64,000 nt of DNA. Source: Candidatus Saccharimonas sp. GTDB lineage: Bacteria; Patescibacteriota; Saccharimonadia; Saccharimonadales; Saccharimonadaceae. Both the position numbers and the translations under genes were made by a program. Location of the stretch: the NCBI GenBank assembly GCA_022736555.1, contig DZCW01000002.1, positions 25,070 to 89,069 on the forward strand. The letters are read 5' to 3'. This document shows positions 58,665 through 64,000 of the stretch, piece by piece. Numbering within the stretch: position 1 is the stretch's first letter; each line of letters begins with the position of its first letter. The notes below the pieces were generated by a model that saw only the letters and a program-made list of their open reading frames with translations, was not told where the DNA came from and searched no databases.

Positions 58665-59690
58665 ATGTCAAACACGAATCTAAAAGAAAAATTAATTGAA
58701 CTTAGTGAATTGGTCGATCCTGTGATTAAGCAGTTGCTTACGCAGGATGTTGAAAGGATGAACGCTGATCTAGCTTTTTACCAATGTAGTGTTGGTGGTA
58801 AAAAGATTAGGCCGGCGCTAGTTATCTTGAGCGGACAGGTGTTTGGTGGTGATGTCAAAGATTTAGTTTATCCGGCTGCCTCAGCCGAGATACTCCACAA
58901 CTCAACCTTAATTATCGATGACATTATAGATCATTCAGAATTTAGGCGAGATGAGCCGACTTGTTGGAACAAATTCGGAACGTCAATTGCGGAATGTAAT
59001 TCTTTTACATATGTCGCATCTGTTTTTGCTGGTTTGACGCATGTCAATAATAGTTCAAAATTAGTTGACCTATATAGCACTACATTGAAAATAATTGTTG
59101 ATGGTGAAATCAAAGACATATTATTTGAACGTTCTGGCCGAGAAGATGAAAAATATGTCGTCGAGCATAGGTATAAAAACATTACCAAAGACGATTATTT
59201 TGAAATGATCAGTAAAAAAACAGCGATATTATTGCAGACATGTTGCCAGGCCGGTGCTATATGTGCCGATGCTAGTCACGAGCAGGTTGAATTAATCGGT
59301 AATTTTGGTTTTGATTTGGGTATGGCTTTCCAGATACGAGATGACATATTAGACATATTTGGTGATGAAAAAGAGTTTGGTAAAAAAATCGGTAAGGACA
59401 TCATAGAAAAAAAGATGGGTAATTTTGTTATCCTATCGGCAATTGACCAACTTGATGAAAAAGGTAAAGGTACGCTACGTAATATACTAGAATCTTCTAA
59501 CGAAGTTTCGGATGAAGATATTGCAACCGTAACGTCGTTAATCGAGACGACTAACGCTAAAAAAGATGCCGAAGATGTTGCTAATTTATATATTCAGGAT
59601 GCTTCATGGTTATTGGCCAAGTTACCACAAAACGAGTATAGTGAGCAACTTGGAGCGATCGCAAAATATATTGTCGATAGAGAAAAATAA
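58665..59690 (+). CDS. trans-Polyprenyl diphosphate synthase (chain length unresolved)
   Basis: FARM LIIDDIIDH and SARM FQIRDDILD. Residues -4/-5 before the FARM are Thr/Ser, not aromatic. Confidence 0.85.
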   Translation: MSNTNLKEKLIELSELVDPVIKQLLTQDVERMNADLAFYQCSVGGKKIRPALVILSGQVFGGDVKDLVYPAASAEILHNSTLIIDDIIDHSEFRRDEPTCWNKFGTSIAECNSFTYVASVFAGLTHVNNSSKLVDLYSTTLKIIVDGEIKDILFERSGREDEKYVVEHRYKNITKDDYFEMISKKTAILLQTCCQAGAICADASHEQVELIGNFGFDLGMAFQIRDDILDIFGDEKEFGKKIGKDIIEKKMGNFVILSAIDQLDEKGKGTLRNILESSNEVSDEDIATVTSLIETTNAKKDAEDVANLYIQDASWLLAKLPQNEYSEQLGAIAKYIVDREK

Positions 59691-60218
59691 ATGGCAGAAG
59701 TAGTATTAGTTGATAATCAAGATAATGAAGTCGGTACAAAAGACAAGATCCAGGCGCACTTAGGCGAAGGTGATCTTCATCGTGCATTTACGGTATTAGT
59801 GTTTAATGAAAAAGGTGAAACCTTGGTCGCTCAGAGAAGCGCTGATAAAATGTTATGGCCTTCGTTTTGGGATAATACCTGTGCTAGCCATCCATTGCCA
59901 GGCGAAGGTTATGTCGAGGCGGGTGAGCGCAGACTAATGGAAGAATTAGGCTTTACTTGTGATCTAGCTGTGGTTGACTGTTTTCAATACAAAGAGCGAT
60001 TTGGGGATGTGGGTTCGGAAAATGAGCTATGTACAACACTAACAGGCGATTATAATGGGGAAGTTCAGCCCGTAGCTAGCGAAGTTTCGGACTATAAATG
60101 GATGGGTATTGGCGAATTGAAAAGCGACATGATCAAAAACCCAGATATATACACAATATGGTTTAAAATAGCGCTGGACAGGCTGATCGAGCAAGGCAAA
60201 ATAATACAGAAGGACTAG
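59691..60218 (+). CDS. idi: Isopentenyl-diphosphate delta-isomerase, type 1 (Nudix fold)
   Basis: LHRAFTVLVFN, WDNTCASHP (catalytic Cys) and RRLMEELG. Starts on the nucleotide after the synthase stop. Confidence 0.85.
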   Translation: MAEVVLVDNQDNEVGTKDKIQAHLGEGDLHRAFTVLVFNEKGETLVAQRSADKMLWPSFWDNTCASHPLPGEGYVEAGERRLMEELGFTCDLAVVDCFQYKERFGDVGSENELCTTLTGDYNGEVQPVASEVSDYKWMGIGELKSDMIKNPDIYTIWFKIALDRLIEQGKIIQKD

Positions 60219-61080: not shown

Positions 61081-62028
61081 ATGATGTATACATATCTACT
61101 TCAAAAAGACGTTAGTGATTACTCTTGGAATGTTGCGCATCTTTATGAGCACTCTTTTTGCCATGCTTTTTTTGATCATATGTCGCAACACGATATTGAT
61201 TTCGGGGTGTATGGCTTTTTAAATGCAGAAACATTCGAACATACTATCTTTATTTATGCTGGTTTTTATAATAAAAATATTGCTGATTTATTCGAAATAT
61301 TTTTTAAAGTCAATAATATACCAGAAAACTTTATCGATAAATCTTTGTCTGAAATTGGTATTGAAGATAACTTAACATATGTAGTGGCTGACCCTATTAA
61401 ATTGCGCGAACAGTTTCGTGCTATCAATCAAACGGCCTGGGTCGACGTAAGTTCATTAGAGGCCGGTCGCTACTTTAGGAATAGGCCATCCATAATATCG
61501 CCTTTAATTGCTAAACGTTCGTCTATGCAATATCGTGATATTGTTATTTATTACTATATTGAAAACGGTACGATAGACGAAAATATATTAATGTTGCGCT
61601 GGAGCGTAATACTGGATGATATTATTAGAACGCATCTAAATAATAATTTGGCATGTTATTCAATTTATTCATCGCCAGTTTATGCTATAAAAGATAATAC
61701 AATCGGCCGCACTCAAATAGTCCGATTCTCGAGAAGCGCTAAAATTAAAGACATAAAAGATAAAGTAGAAAATATAGTAAAGACATTTGATATTAAGAAA
61801 AATTTCCTATACATAAATGATCATTTTGTTGAATACGATAATAAACTGACTTGGCGTGATGATCCAATTATGTATTATAAACATACGGATATTATTACTA
61901 GTAATTCTTACGTAGCTTCTCTTGCTACGATAGATAATTTGTTAAATCTTATGGATAAGACTAAAATATCTGTTCAAAGTTATTCACAACCTTCTTTTGA
62001 CTATCTGCAGAAGCGGCTAAATAAATAG
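61081..62028 (+). CDS. Hypothetical protein with an M16-like inverted zinc motif (HxxEH)
   Basis: NVAHLYEHSFCH near the N-terminus resembles the pitrilysin-family G-x-A-H-x-x-E-H-x-x-F. Very AT-rich. 315 aa, roughly one M16 half-domain. Confidence 0.4.
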   Translation: MMYTYLLQKDVSDYSWNVAHLYEHSFCHAFFDHMSQHDIDFGVYGFLNAETFEHTIFIYAGFYNKNIADLFEIFFKVNNIPENFIDKSLSEIGIEDNLTYVVADPIKLREQFRAINQTAWVDVSSLEAGRYFRNRPSIISPLIAKRSSMQYRDIVIYYYIENGTIDENILMLRWSVILDDIIRTHLNNNLACYSIYSSPVYAIKDNTIGRTQIVRFSRSAKIKDIKDKVENIVKTFDIKKNFLYINDHFVEYDNKLTWRDDPIMYYKHTDIITSNSYVASLATIDNLLNLMDKTKISVQSYSQPSFDYLQKRLNK

Positions 62029-62072: not shown

Positions 62073-62492
62073 CTACTGAATATTAGCTAAAACATATGAT
62101 TTAAGTGCGGGTGTGCACTGTTCGATATCAATAGATTTTAGGTCTACCCAAAACACTTCGGGCGTTTCTTCTGATGTCGCAGGAATTTCATTACCCGTCA
62201 CGGAACATTTAAAAAATAGATATAATTTTGCTTTATCTTTAGCAATAGAACTCGATTCTAGCCAGCTATCTACTAAAATATCAACATCAGTCTCCTCTTT
62301 AAGTTCGCGGATCAGGGCTGCTTCGATGGTATCTTGTATGAGACCACTGTTCTCTTCAACTTCAACCGTCCCACCAGGTATAGCTAGCATACCGGGAAAT
62401 GTCTCTTCATCGTCTGCGCGACGGATAACTAGAAGCTCGTTCTTGGAATTAAATACAAACCCGCTGACAATAACCTTAAACTGATTGATCAT
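62073..62492 (-). CDS. Nudix hydrolase
   Basis: Nudix box GGTVEVEENSGLIQDTIEAALIRELKEETDV. Confidence 0.8.
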   Translation of the reverse strand: MINQFKVIVSGFVFNSKNELLVIRRADDEETFPGMLAIPGGTVEVEENSGLIQDTIEAALIRELKEETDVDILVDSWLESSSIAKDKAKLYLFFKCSVTGNEIPATSEETPEVFWVDLKSIDIEQCTPALKSYVLANIQ

Positions 62493-63201
62493 CGATTAAT
62501 ATATCCTTTCGATTTAATATGTTTCGCTTAATTATAGCATCTATGACGATTTTCTCGATTGACCTAGGGTCCTGAGCGCCATTAATACTAATAAGATTAT
62601 CATTTCGTTTACTTAAGACCTCAAAGGCCTCTTCGTAATATCCGTTCGAACTAAGAATATTATTATGGCGAAACTCATATTTTGGATCGTTAATATTAAG
62701 CCGATTTATTAGTGTGTCTATTGGTGTATTTAGATATATCGTTAGATCAGGCTCGAGTGAATATATAGCATTCGTTTCAAGTGAATCACCTTCGATATTT
62801 CGATACATGTTATTAAATTTTGGTTCTAAACCCTCTTTTAATGTCATCTGAGCACGGCTAATATGGAAGCGATCAAACAATATGACCGCCTCTGGATCTG
62901 ATGATATATTTGTGCGTTTTATAGCAGCTTCCGCTAAAAGTCTACGGGCCCCAATTCGCCAAGCATCAAATTCATTTTCAAAGCCTTTGGTGTAAGTTCT
63001 AAAGTTATTCCACCATTCCGATTCTGGGTCACAGCCATAGCTATTTGTTCCTGGGCGAGAACCATCCCCCCTGAGTACGTGTGGGTGTAGCCCGTTTCGT
63101 AGAAGATTCGACTCTAGTAATTCAATCTGGGTATTCTTGCCGGAGCGATGGTTACCGTCAAATGCGATTATAGGGATGTGTTCTAGTGTCTGATTTATAG
63201 T
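62476..63201 (-). CDS. dTMP-kinase-like P-loop kinase: open frame with no canonical start before the P-loop
   Basis: My manual translation upstream of the track ORF gives ...IIAFDGNHRSGKNTQIELLE...LRGDGSRPGT...FDRFHISRAQ (TMPK-like P-loop, DR(Y/F) and lid). No ATG/GTG/TTG lies between the upstream stop (63202-63204) and the TTG at 62880. Confidence 0.5.
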   Translation of the reverse strand, partial: TINQTLEHIPIIAFDGNHRSGKNTQIELLESNLLRNGLHPHVLRGDGSRPGTNSYGCDPESEWWNNFRTYTKGFENEFDAWRIGARRLLAEAAIKRTNISSDPEAVILFDRFHISRAQMTLKEGLEPKFNNMYRNIEGDSLETNAIYSLEPDLTIYLNTPIDTLINRLNINDPKYEFRHNNILSSNGYYEEAFEVLSKRNDNLISINGAQDPRSIEKIVIDAIIKRNILNRKDILIDDQSV

Positions 63202-64000
63202 TTAAAATTTCCCGATACTTGCTCATTAGTACTAATACTTTCTGCGATACCAGCCAATAGGATGTTAGTACGAATATGCGATTTAATACCAGATCCCGAT
63301 GGTATATCATTAAGAAAATCGTCGACAAGTTGGTAACGAGCATTTTCATTTTGACCGACTGTAATACTTTTAGACTTTTCGATATCTTGAAGCCTGACTA
63401 ATTCATATGTTTTACCACCGATCAAGTCGCTGTTTCTATAAATATGGATATCAAAATGTTCCAATCCACCAGTGTCGTGTGGGTTAATCGTTTGTTTGCC
63501 TTTAACTTCGGTCGATTGGTATGAGTGGACTTGGATATTTATTAAAGGCCCAATCTGGATATTTACGCGCTCATGGCGCAAACGCCCGTTCCCTTTATAT
63601 GTGTCTTTTTTAGCCACACCCCAAGCACGACGCGAGAAACCTGTGTGTAGAAGATTCATAGATACTGTAGTAGTAACGCGGCAGTCTTTTTTTAATTGGA
63701 TTAATGAGTAGCTATCTATTTCGCCAAAAACATTGTCTGGAAATATATATCGGTTATCGATATTAAACATCTTTTTATAGAATTTATCTGGTATCTGTGC
63801 TTTGAAATCATTAATACTATTTTTATACGAGAACAGCTCGAATTGATCATAGTCTAATGTATCAGTGAGATAGCTAAGTAGATCGACGAAATGATAACCA
63901 GAATGGAGTAGCTTACCATAACCGAAAGCATAGGGATGGTTTGTGAGGTTTGGTATTTCATCTGGAAAATCCCAACGTCCATCTGAGTGATAGATGTCAA
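63195..64000 (-). CDS. Partial ORF running off the window, Gfo/Idh/MocA-like C-terminal domain (tentative)
   Basis: My manual extension shows the frame is open to position 64000. GYGKLLHSGYHFVDLLSYL and ...RVTTTVSMN...RVNIQIGPLINIQVH resemble the oxidoreductase C-domain pattern. Confidence 0.35.
   Translation of the reverse strand, partial: DIYHSDGRWDFPDEIPNLTNHPYAFGYGKLLHSGYHFVDLLSYLTDTLDYDQFELFSYKNSINDFKAQIPDKFYKKMFNIDNRYIFPDNVFGEIDSYSLIQLKKDCRVTTTVSMNLLHTGFSRRAWGVAKKDTYKGNGRLRHERVNIQIGPLINIQVHSYQSTEVKGKQTINPHDTGGLEHFDIHIYRNSDLIGGKTYELVRLQDIEKSKSITVGQNENARYQLVDDFLNDIPSGSGIKSHIRTNILLAGIAESISTNEQVSGNFKL

What the first reader, a model, noticed from the sequence alone, without database searches (positions are those of the whole stretch)
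62073..64000. Oxidoreductase-like, dTMP-kinase-like and Nudix operon in which the kinase P-loop has no start codon and is one nucleotide out of frame with the upstream ORF
Reading the minus strand by hand, the frame of the track ORF 62476-62880 stays open upstream to 63201. There it encodes a complete P-loop N-terminus: ...IIAFDGNHRSGKNTQ...LRGDGSRPGT...FDRF.... This 107-codon stretch contains no ATG, GTG or TTG, and the track 'Met' at 62880 is a TTG Leu.

The upstream ORF runs off the window at 64000 and has tentative Gfo/Idh/MocA-like C-domain features. It ends at TAA 63195-63197 in the adjacent frame, within GGAAATTTTAAACTATAA. Inserting a single A in the AAA run (plus-strand TTT, 63201-63203) would fuse the two as ...SGNFKTINQTLEHIPIIAFDG.... 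Classical -1 slippage on A-AAT-TTT runs straight into a TAA, so programmed frameshifting looks unlikely.

Three options remain: a homopolymer sequencing error hiding a fusion enzyme, a fresh pseudogene, or non-canonical initiation. The kinase overlaps the Nudix gene by 17 nt. The three genes therefore look like one nucleotide or nucleotide-sugar processing unit of unknown role in an AT-rich, possibly acquired, segment.
Basis: partly seen in the sequence, partly recalled or inferred. Interest (0 to 1): 0.6.

Follow-up and report, generated by a model that had tools for sequence, protein, structure and literature searches.

The report
Kinase gene that lost its ATG
A nucleotide-kinase-like gene in an uncultured Saccharibacteria genome lost its start codon through one G-to-A change inside the usual four-base "ATGA" stop/start overlap with the gene before it, so this is an ordinary young start-codon loss and not a frameshift or a hidden fusion enzyme.

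Summary
On the minus strand the kinase frame is open from 63201 to 62476. It encodes a complete P-loop N-terminus and has no ATG, GTG or TTG for 107 codons. The upstream Gfo/Idh/MocA-like gene stops at TAA 63197-63195, one base out of register.

In 10 distinct orthologous loci the two genes share a 4-nt overlap, ATGA or GTGA. There the kinase start overlaps the upstream TGA stop. The window reads ATAA at exactly that aligned spot. One G>A at 63196 (C>T on the plus strand) kept the stop (TGA>TAA) and turned ATG into ATA.

A relative about 93% identical, found in another metagenome, still has ATGA. The change is therefore derived and recent. Two public runs at about 15x depth and a JGI assembly carry the window sequence without indels, so it is not a homopolymer error.

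None of 65 kinase clusters or about 180 oxidoreductase homologues is a fusion.

The kinase is most likely a nascent pseudogene or a strongly under-translated gene, relying on leaky AUA re-initiation.

The three-gene cassette of sugar-dehydrogenase-like, NMP-kinase-like and Nudix genes is conserved in Saccharibacteria and Parcubacteria. It is uncharacterised.

The parts
63195..64000 (-). 3' part (267 codons plus TAA) of a 451-aa Gfo/Idh/MocA-like NAD(P) oxidoreductase gene. The remaining 550 nt lie beyond the window end (L005:7943-9298 = P0025).
   Evidence: PF01408 27 bits against a cut-off of 24. AlphaFold2 pLDDT 92.8. Best Foldseek matches are sugar C-OH dehydrogenases and NAD-dependent glycosidases: 8qc5, 9m3d, 6ktj and GFOR, with TM 0.6-0.79.
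63195..63198 (-). ATAA junction: upstream stop TAA (63197-63195) overlapping the former kinase start, now ATA (63198-63196). Orthologues have ATGA or GTGA here.
   Evidence: Junction listing of 11 loci and L008 and L014. Protein alignment A1 places the orthologues' Met on this Ile.
63196..63196 (-). The derived base: A on the minus strand (T on plus). The ancestral state is G (C on plus).
   Evidence: A contig of run X5 (about 93% identical over 63132-63307) reads C on the plus strand at 63196. Runs X1 and X2 read T at word depths 15.5 and 13.6.
62476..63198 (-). Kinase-like ORF, 240 codons from ATA plus TAA. It has a thymidylate-kinase fold and an adenylate-kinase-type P-loop, and it has no canonical start.
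   Evidence: AlphaFold2 pLDDT 86.5. Foldseek best matches are thymidylate kinases, 4s35/2pbr, TMt 0.78-0.80.
63127..63156 (-). P-loop GNHRSGKNTQ. The family consensus is GNHRxGKGTQ, and the window has Asn where all 20 aligned orthologues have Gly.
63210..63213 (-). Weak Shine-Dalgarno-like GGGA, 12-15 nt upstream of ATA. Orthologues have GGTGAT, AGGAGA or AGGAAA at the same place.
   Evidence: junction contexts.
62878..62880 (-). TTG taken as the start by gene callers, giving a 134-aa product. It is really the invariant Leu of the LFDR motif, so that product would lack the P-loop.
   Evidence: The truncated calls are P0005 (134 aa) and P0164 (123 aa).
62073..62492 (-). Nudix hydrolase gene, 139 aa, ATG start, overlapping the kinase 3' end by 17 nt.
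   Evidence: PF00293 61 bits. RE-x2-EE is conserved in all 11 aligned orthologues, and no residue that is invariant or nearly invariant in the others is changed in the window copy.

Best explanation
**Shown.** The Gfo-like gene and the kinase gene are separate genes. Ancestrally they were joined by a 4-nt ATGA overlap, in which the kinase ATG overlaps the upstream TGA. This layout gives translational coupling by termination-reinitiation. In the window's lineage a single G>A transition at 63196 changed ATGA to ATAA. The upstream gene still terminates (TGA>TAA), but the kinase start became ATA. The kinase frame closes one codon upstream (TAA 63204-63202). The next canonical start, TTG 62880, lies after the P-loop. 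No canonical route to a full-length kinase remains.

**Inferred.** Ribosomes terminating at UAA can reinitiate on the overlapping near-cognate AUA only rarely. In E. coli reporters such codons give about 0.1-3% of AUG. The kinase is therefore made at trace level or not at all. The gene is a very young pseudogene or a severe hypomorph. The flanking oxidoreductase and Nudix genes stay intact. My split is about 0.6 for effectively lost or hypomorphic by drift and about 0.25 for an AUA start that still gives useful expression. The confidence of 0.85 given for this explanation refers to the shown part, the point substitution in an ATGA overlap.

**Cassette function (inferred, low confidence).** An NAD(P)-dependent dehydrogenase acting on a sugar or ribose hydroxyl, an NMP-kinase-like phosphotransferase and a Nudix pyrophosphatase work together on one nucleotide or nucleotide-sugar metabolite.
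For: - **Start position.** Alignment A1 puts the Met of 20 orthologues at or within a few residues of the window's Ile (ATA). The closest examples are MNQV in P0002 and MNQY in P0003, against INQT in the window.
- **Junctions in orthologues.** Of the listed loci, 9 have ATGA and 2 have GTGA at the aligned junction, and the window has ATAA. L008 also has ATGA. Four more distant loci have other short overlaps or a spacer, all with ATG.
- **Close relative.** A relative about 93% identical (run X5) reads ATGA. In the conserved kinase core, its listed differences from the window are all synonymous.
- **Sequence is real.** Contigs of runs X1 and X2, at word depths 15.5 and 13.6, are identical to the window over 62400-64000 with no variants or indels. 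The Logan contig L005 and the JGI contig L006 hold the same junction.
- **No fusions.** Among 65 kinase clusters the longest is 263 aa. Among the 120 listed of 183 oxidoreductase hits the longest is 468 aa.
- **Genome uses normal starts.** 67 of the 69 long open frames reach a canonical start within 50 codons. The two exceptions are the kinase and the upstream ORF cut by the window end.
- **Mutation direction fits.** TGA is the rarest stop in the window (8 of 69), which fits GC>AT drift.
- **AUA initiation level.** AUA initiates at about 0.1-3% of AUG in E. coli (bioRxiv 10.1101/063800). ATGA overlaps mediate termination-reinitiation (PMC6728339).
- **Cassette can decay piecemeal.** In L014 the oxidoreductase gene is 5'-truncated while the kinase and Nudix genes remain.
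Against: - The 240-codon ORF has no stop or frameshift.
- It keeps all 45 invariant residues of the family.
- It shows no faster protein evolution than its neighbours. Distance to the outgroup L004 is 0.42 for the window and 0.44 for L001, and the kinase/oxidoreductase divergence ratio is about 1.9, as in other pairs. This fits either a very recent loss or continued selection on an AUA-initiated gene.
- An SD-like GGGA remains upstream.
- Only assembled contigs could be examined, not raw reads, so a minority ATG allele in the population cannot be excluded.
- X1 and X2 may not be independent samples.
Confidence: 0.85

Rival explanations
1. Functional non-canonical start: AUA in the AUAA overlap is used as a real initiation codon through termination-reinitiation by ribosomes finishing the oxidoreductase gene. 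The kinase is still made at a lower but selected level.
For: The ORF is intact with all family-invariant residues and no rate acceleration. An SD-like GGGA is retained, similar to AGGAAA in L015. Near-cognate AUA does initiate measurably in E. coli. Post-termination ribosomes are already positioned on the overlap.
Against: None of the 14 distinct orthologous junctions, nor the 93% relative, uses ATA. The genome otherwise uses canonical starts. The expected yield is at most a few percent of AUG. The window copy alone also carries Asn for the otherwise invariant P-loop Gly, which hints at relaxed constraint.
Confidence: 0.25
2. Sequencing or assembly artefact, or a minor allele: the true or majority sequence is ATGA and the gene is normal.
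For: Only contigs, not reads, could be inspected, and contigs drop minority variants. X1 and X2 gave contigs with identical coordinates for this stretch and may derive from related or identical samples.
Against: Two runs at about 15x word depth and a separate JGI assembly agree base for base. A consensus substitution error at that depth is very unlikely. The site is not in a homopolymer, and no indel is seen.
Confidence: 0.05
3. Hidden fusion or programmed frameshift, the reader's first option: the oxidoreductase and kinase are made as one polypeptide after a homopolymer correction or ribosomal or transcriptional slippage.
For: An A-AAT-TTT heptamer and short A/T runs lie just upstream of the stop.
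Against: The -1 frame reads TAA immediately after the heptamer. The A/T runs are only 3-4 nt long. All orthologues encode two separate proteins with their own ATG or GTG. No fused homologue exists in 5.8 billion proteins. No indel is seen in the assemblies.
Confidence: 0.01

Closest known systems
ATGA stop/start overlaps with translational coupling by termination-reinitiation (Huber et al. 2019, PMC6728339)
   Same: Orthologues of this gene pair have exactly this 4-nt overlap, preceded by an intragenic SD-like motif.
   Different: In the window the start half of the overlap is mutated (ATAA). Only the stop function is canonical.
Start-codon-loss pseudogenes and hypomorphs; near-cognate starts such as AUU of infC (own knowledge) and AUA/AUC/AUU/CUG at 0.1-3% of AUG (Hecht et al., bioRxiv 10.1101/063800)
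   Same: A single transition at the third base of ATG gives a near-cognate ATA.
   Different: infC's AUU is conserved and regulatory. Here ATA is unique to one lineage and is absent from a 93% identical relative.
Thymidylate kinase / adenylate kinase (NMP kinase fold)
   Same: The predicted fold superposes on thymidylate kinases, TMt up to 0.80. The Pfam Thymidylate_kin hit is above the gathering score. The GKGTQ P-loop is of the adenylate/UMP-CMP kinase type (own knowledge).
   Different: Identity to solved TMPKs is only about 20%. The score against the dTMP-kinase equivalog TIGR00041 is 29.7, far below its cut-off of 83. The family has its own invariant motifs (DGNHR, LRGDGSRPG, DPKYEFR). 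It is a rare CPR family of 65 clusters, always next to a Gfo-like gene and, wherever the contig extends far enough, a Nudix gene.
Gfo/Idh/MocA sugar dehydrogenases (GFOR, scyllo-inositol dehydrogenase, DgpA C-glycoside 3-oxidase, NAD-dependent glycoside hydrolases)
   Same: Two-domain fold, N-terminal Rossmann GxGxxA, a DKP variant of the EKP motif, and a conserved His/Asp cluster HSGYHFVD.
   Different: It is about 100 aa longer than the solved homologues and only 11-16% identical to them. No Pfam C-domain model matches, and the substrate is unknown.

Membership tests
ATGA-type overlapping gene pair (termination-reinitiation coupling) | [quoted passage not shown] | tested here: not met
   The window has ATAA: the stop is present and the start codon is ATA. 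Ten distinct orthologous loci and the X5 relative meet it.
ATGA-type overlapping gene pair (termination-reinitiation coupling) | Translation of the downstream gene depends on translation of the upstream gene | not testable with these tools
   Needs reporter fusions with an upstream premature stop.
Programmed -1 ribosomal frameshift / fusion protein | Slippery heptamer followed by an open -1 frame that continues into the downstream domain | tested here: not met
   After A-AAT-TTT the -1 frame reads TAA 63204-63202. No fused homologues exist.
dTMP kinase (Tmk, TIGR00041 / PF02223) | Score above the curated family cut-offs | tested here: inconclusive
   PF02223 scores 33.3 bits against a cut-off of 27, but only the C-terminal third aligns. 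The TIGR00041 equivalog scores 29.7 against a cut-off of 83.25, so it is not met.
dTMP kinase (Tmk, TIGR00041 / PF02223) | NMP-kinase fold with P-loop, NMP-binding region and LID | tested here: met
   AlphaFold2 pLDDT 86.5. The top 50 Foldseek matches are thymidylate kinases or adenylate kinase 5.
dTMP kinase (Tmk, TIGR00041 / PF02223) | Phosphorylates dTMP | not testable with these tools
   Needs an enzyme assay. The distinct conserved motifs and the fixed operon partners argue for a different substrate (inference).
Gfo/Idh/MocA oxidoreductases | N-terminal NAD(P)-binding Rossmann domain (PF01408) | tested here: met
   Full-length P0025 (L005:7943-9298) scores 27 bits against a cut-off of 24. 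Orthologues score 30-32 bits. This domain lies outside the window.
Gfo/Idh/MocA oxidoreductases | C-terminal alpha/beta domain with an open sheet, and the family's overall two-domain fold | tested here: met
   Foldseek E 1e-17 to 1e-14 and TM 0.6-0.79 to 8qc5, 9m3d, 6ktj, 1ofg and 2glx. No Pfam C-domain model hits.
Gfo/Idh/MocA oxidoreductases | EKP motif and catalytic His/Asp | tested here: inconclusive
   DKP (D118 K119 P120) is nearly invariant, and H216, H220 and D223 are conserved. Equivalence to the catalytic residues is inferred from motif position only.
Nudix hydrolases | PF00293 above cut-off and Nudix-box glutamates RE-x2-EE | tested here: met
   61.2 bits against a cut-off of 21.1. 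R62, E63, E66 and E67 are invariant in 11 orthologues. The G-to-RE spacing is longer than the canonical Gx5Ex7RE (read from the sequence).

The most novel reading that the evidence does not exclude
AUA is a working initiation codon here. Ribosomes terminating on the overlapping UAA reinitiate on AUA, so the mutation acts as a natural 'dimmer' that retunes the kinase to oxidoreductase ratio in a CPR bacterium. The affected cassette is an uncharacterised nucleotide or nucleotide-sugar processing module. It combines a Gfo-like dehydrogenase, an NMP-kinase-like protein and a Nudix hydrolase, and it is shared by Saccharibacteria and Parcubacteria.
Probability: 0.2. Interest if true: 0.45.

Novelty: new member of a known kind. 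Interest (0 to 1): 0.25.

Why it matters
- **Annotation.** Automatic gene callers split this locus into a 123-134-aa 'hypothetical protein' that lacks its P-loop. The correct description is a kinase gene whose ATG became ATA. A one-base offset between adjacent ORFs should be checked first against the ATGA overlap before a frameshift or fusion is invoked.
- **Biology.** This is a dated example of how AT-biased mutation can silence the downstream partner of an overlapping pair while sparing the upstream stop. An ATGA-bearing relative at about 93% identity provides the dating.
- **Wider lead.** The conserved and rare three-gene cassette in CPR bacteria has no known function. These organisms depend on nucleotide salvage, so the cassette may be worth biochemical study.

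Tried and rejected
- **Homopolymer error or fusion.** Rejected by contig lay-down, orthologue architecture and homologue lengths.
- **-1 slippage.** Rejected because TAA lies in the -1 frame.
- **Genome-wide odd start codons or an altered genetic code.** Rejected. All other long ORFs start canonically and all three stop codons are used.
- **Known anti-phage defence system.** PADLOC gave nothing for the kinase or the oxidoreductase, and only a generic Nudix hit to PDC-S07.
- **Relaxed-selection test.** Neither protein divergence ratios nor the distance to an outgroup showed any acceleration. Counting unique deviations gave only 2. One of them, N53, is shared with the ATGA-bearing X5 relative, so it predates the start loss.
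- **Collection scans for more orthologues.** These gave little: 1 locus in genome contigs and 5 in metagenome contigs.
- **Literature.** A search for the cassette found nothing relevant.
- **Second kinase copy in the window.** None found.
- **Promoter and terminator scan.** Nothing above shuffled expectation, and no terminator inside the cassette.
Full report
**1. The observation**

Read on the minus strand, 62073-64000 holds three co-directional reading frames.
- The first runs off the window at 64000 and ends ...GGA AAT TTT AAA CTA TAA, with TAA at 63197-63195.
- The second is open from 63201 to TAA 62478-62476. The codon just upstream of it is TAA 63204-63202. It translates as TINQTLEHIPIIAFDGNHRSGKNTQ...LRGDGSRPGT...LFDRF..., with no ATG, GTG or TTG for 107 codons. 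The first such codon is TTG 62880.
- The third is an ATG-initiated 139-aa gene at 62492-62073. It overlaps the second by 17 nt.

A mechanical survey of the 69 long open frames in the window shows this is an outlier. Apart from the ORF cut by the window edge, no other frame has more than 50 start-less codons, and most have fewer than 15.

**2. What the three genes are**

- **Middle ORF.** It hits Pfam Thymidylate_kin at 33 bits (cut-off 27) but falls far short of the dTMP-kinase equivalog model, 29.7 against 83. An AlphaFold2 model built on 21 sequences (pLDDT 86.5) superposes on thymidylate kinases, TM up to 0.80 normalised on the target. The P-loop consensus GNHRxGKGTQ is of the adenylate/UMP-CMP-kinase type (own knowledge).
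- **Downstream gene.** It is a Nudix hydrolase (61 bits) with RE-x2-EE conserved.
- **Upstream gene.** Its in-window part has no Pfam hit. The same contig found in public assemblies (L005 and L006, identical over the junction) gives the full 451-aa protein. That protein hits GFO_IDH_MocA at 27 bits (cut-off 24). Its model (pLDDT 92.8) matches the whole two-domain fold of sugar-hydroxyl dehydrogenases: NAD-dependent glycoside hydrolase 8qc5, DgpA1 9m3d, scyllo-inositol dehydrogenase 6ktj and GFOR.

**3. Why there is no start codon**

A search of 5.8 billion proteins found 24 kinase homologues (65 with a profile). All are stand-alone proteins of 161-263 aa. In the alignment their Met falls on the window's Ile codon ATA 63198-63196. 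The closest orthologues read MNQV (P0002), MNQY (P0003) and MSQF (P0001), against (T)INQT in the window.

I fetched the DNA of the orthologous loci.
- In every one the Gfo-like gene, the kinase and, wherever the contig extends far enough, the Nudix gene lie in the same order.
- In the 11 loci listed, the first two genes overlap by four bases: ATGA in nine and GTGA in two. L008 adds another ATGA.
- The window has ATAA at the aligned position.
- Four more distant loci have a 1-nt spacer or 8-14-nt overlaps, always with ATG.

The 'one nucleotide out of frame' relation is thus simply the register of an ATGA overlap. The lesion is a single G>A transition at 63196 (C>T on the plus strand). It leaves the upstream stop intact (TGA>TAA) and converts ATG to ATA.

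**4. Is the base real, and how old is the change?**

- Logan contigs from two public runs cover 62400-64000 with zero differences and zero indels: X1, a soil metagenome of 2012, at word depth 15.5, and X2, a biofilm metagenome of 2014, at 13.6.
- A JGI assembly agrees.
- The site is not in a homopolymer.
- A third run, X5 (a mine-drainage metagenome), holds short contigs of a close relative. Its piece over 63132-63307 differs at 13 of 176 positions and reads C on the plus strand at 63196, which is ATGA with a TGA stop.

ATG is therefore ancestral, and the loss is younger than a divergence of about 5-7% at the nucleotide level. In the conserved kinase core, the listed differences between the two strains are all synonymous (R43, C56). 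The amino-acid changes lie in the variable N- and C-terminal tails.

I could not inspect raw reads, so a minority ATG allele cannot be excluded. X1 and X2 may also be related samples.

**5. Consequence (inference)**

With the frame closed one codon upstream, and the next canonical start lying after the P-loop in the invariant LFDR motif, a full-length kinase can only come from initiation at near-cognate AUA. In orthologues the ATGA layout, with its SD-like GGTGAT, AGGAGA or AGGAAA about 10-15 nt upstream, is the classical arrangement for termination-reinitiation coupling (PMC6728339). The window keeps a weaker GGGA. In E. coli reporters AUA initiates at roughly 0.1-3% of AUG (bioRxiv 10.1101/063800).

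I therefore expect trace or no kinase. The gene is a nascent pseudogene or a severe hypomorph.

Points in favour of loss or relaxation:
- ATA is unique among 14 distinct orthologous junctions plus the close relative.
- The genome otherwise uses canonical starts.
- The window copy alone has Asn for the otherwise invariant Gly after the P-loop Lys.
- The cassette can decay piecemeal elsewhere. L014 has a 5'-truncated oxidoreductase gene.

Points in favour of retained function:
- The ORF is intact.
- All 45 invariant residues are kept.
- There is no excess divergence relative to the neighbouring genes or to an outgroup.

The second unique deviation, N53, is shared with the ATGA-bearing relative. 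It is therefore older than the start loss and does not count as decay.

**6. Rejected alternatives**

- **Homopolymer error hiding a fusion.** No indels in the assemblies. No fused homologue of either protein. All orthologues are two genes.
- **Programmed -1 frameshift.** The -1 frame hits TAA immediately, and the A/T runs are too short for transcriptional slippage (own knowledge).
- **Unusual genetic code or general use of odd starts.** Not supported.
- **Known defence system.** Not supported.

**7. The cassette**

The order Gfo-like, kinase, Nudix is conserved in every Saccharibacteria locus that extends far enough, although the flanks differ. They include EF-G/EF-Tu, conjugation (type IV secretion-like) PrgI/TraC-like genes, toxin-domain genes and a UbiA gene. 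This points to a functional module that relocates.

A Parcubacteria contig has four tandem paralogues of the oxidoreductase, a kinase of the same family (hhalign probability 99.9) and two Nudix genes. It again lies next to a UbiA gene.

In Stigmatella a homologous oxidoreductase is joined by a 4-nt overlap to a 753-aa protein. That protein carries a 2OG-Fe(II) oxygenase domain, a genuine adenylate-kinase domain and an APH domain. Its kinase is not orthologous to this family.

The recurring pairing of this oxidoreductase with an NMP-kinase-fold protein, plus Nudix in CPR bacteria, suggests joint action on a nucleotide or nucleotide-sugar. The substrate is unknown, and I found no literature on it.

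**8. Verdict**

The mechanism is an ordinary start-codon point mutation in an ATGA overlap. This is a new instance of a known kind of event, and interest is low to moderate. It lies mainly in the clean dating of the loss and in the uncharacterised, rare CPR cassette.

Noticed in passing
L014:2393-3004: In another Saccharibacteria contig the Gfo-like gene is 5'-truncated. Only residues 249-451 of P0025 are matched, and a 111-aa ORF is called. The GTGA-overlapping kinase and the Nudix gene stay intact. Neighbours carry CdiA_C and VbhA domains.
   Followed up: partly
L021:732-8404: A Parcubacteria contig has four tandem ~460-aa paralogues of the Gfo-like gene, then a 232-aa kinase of the same family and two Nudix genes. 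A UbiA prenyltransferase gene lies divergently upstream.
   Followed up: partly
L005:6056-7791 (just beyond window end 64000): The window's own contig also has a UbiA gene (L005:6907-7791) lying divergently upstream of the Gfo-like gene, plus a SAM methyltransferase gene (L005:6056-6910) beside it. This is the same UbiA position as in the Parcubacteria contig L021, which hints at a link between the cassette and a prenyl-phosphate pathway.
   Followed up: no
L020:2743-6401: In Stigmatella sp. a homologue of the Gfo-like protein is preceded, with a 4-nt overlap, by a 753-aa fusion of a 2OG-Fe(II) oxygenase, an adenylate kinase (PF00406, 76 bits) and an APH phosphotransferase. The kinase here is non-orthologous, but the pairing is the same.
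   Followed up: partly
window 63133-63135 (minus strand): The P-loop reads GKNTQ where all 20 aligned orthologues have GKGTQ. GGN>AAT needs two G>A changes. Whether the ATGA-bearing X5 relative shares it is unknown, because the codon lies at the very end of its contig.
   Followed up: partly
window 61081-62028 (+): A 315-aa ORF convergent with the Nudix gene has no Pfam hit. It lies in the most AT-rich part of the neighbourhood (GC about 0.32).
   Followed up: no
window 59691-60218 and 58665-59690 (+): A second Nudix-fold gene sits next to a polyprenyl synthase gene. The Nudix protein in this report gave only weak, below-cut-off hits to the IPP-isomerase models. This second gene looks like a type-1 IPP isomerase, separate from the cassette.
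   Followed up: no
window, whole: Stop-codon usage in 69 long ORFs is TAA 36, TAG 25, TGA 8. Overall GC is 0.407.
   Followed up: yes
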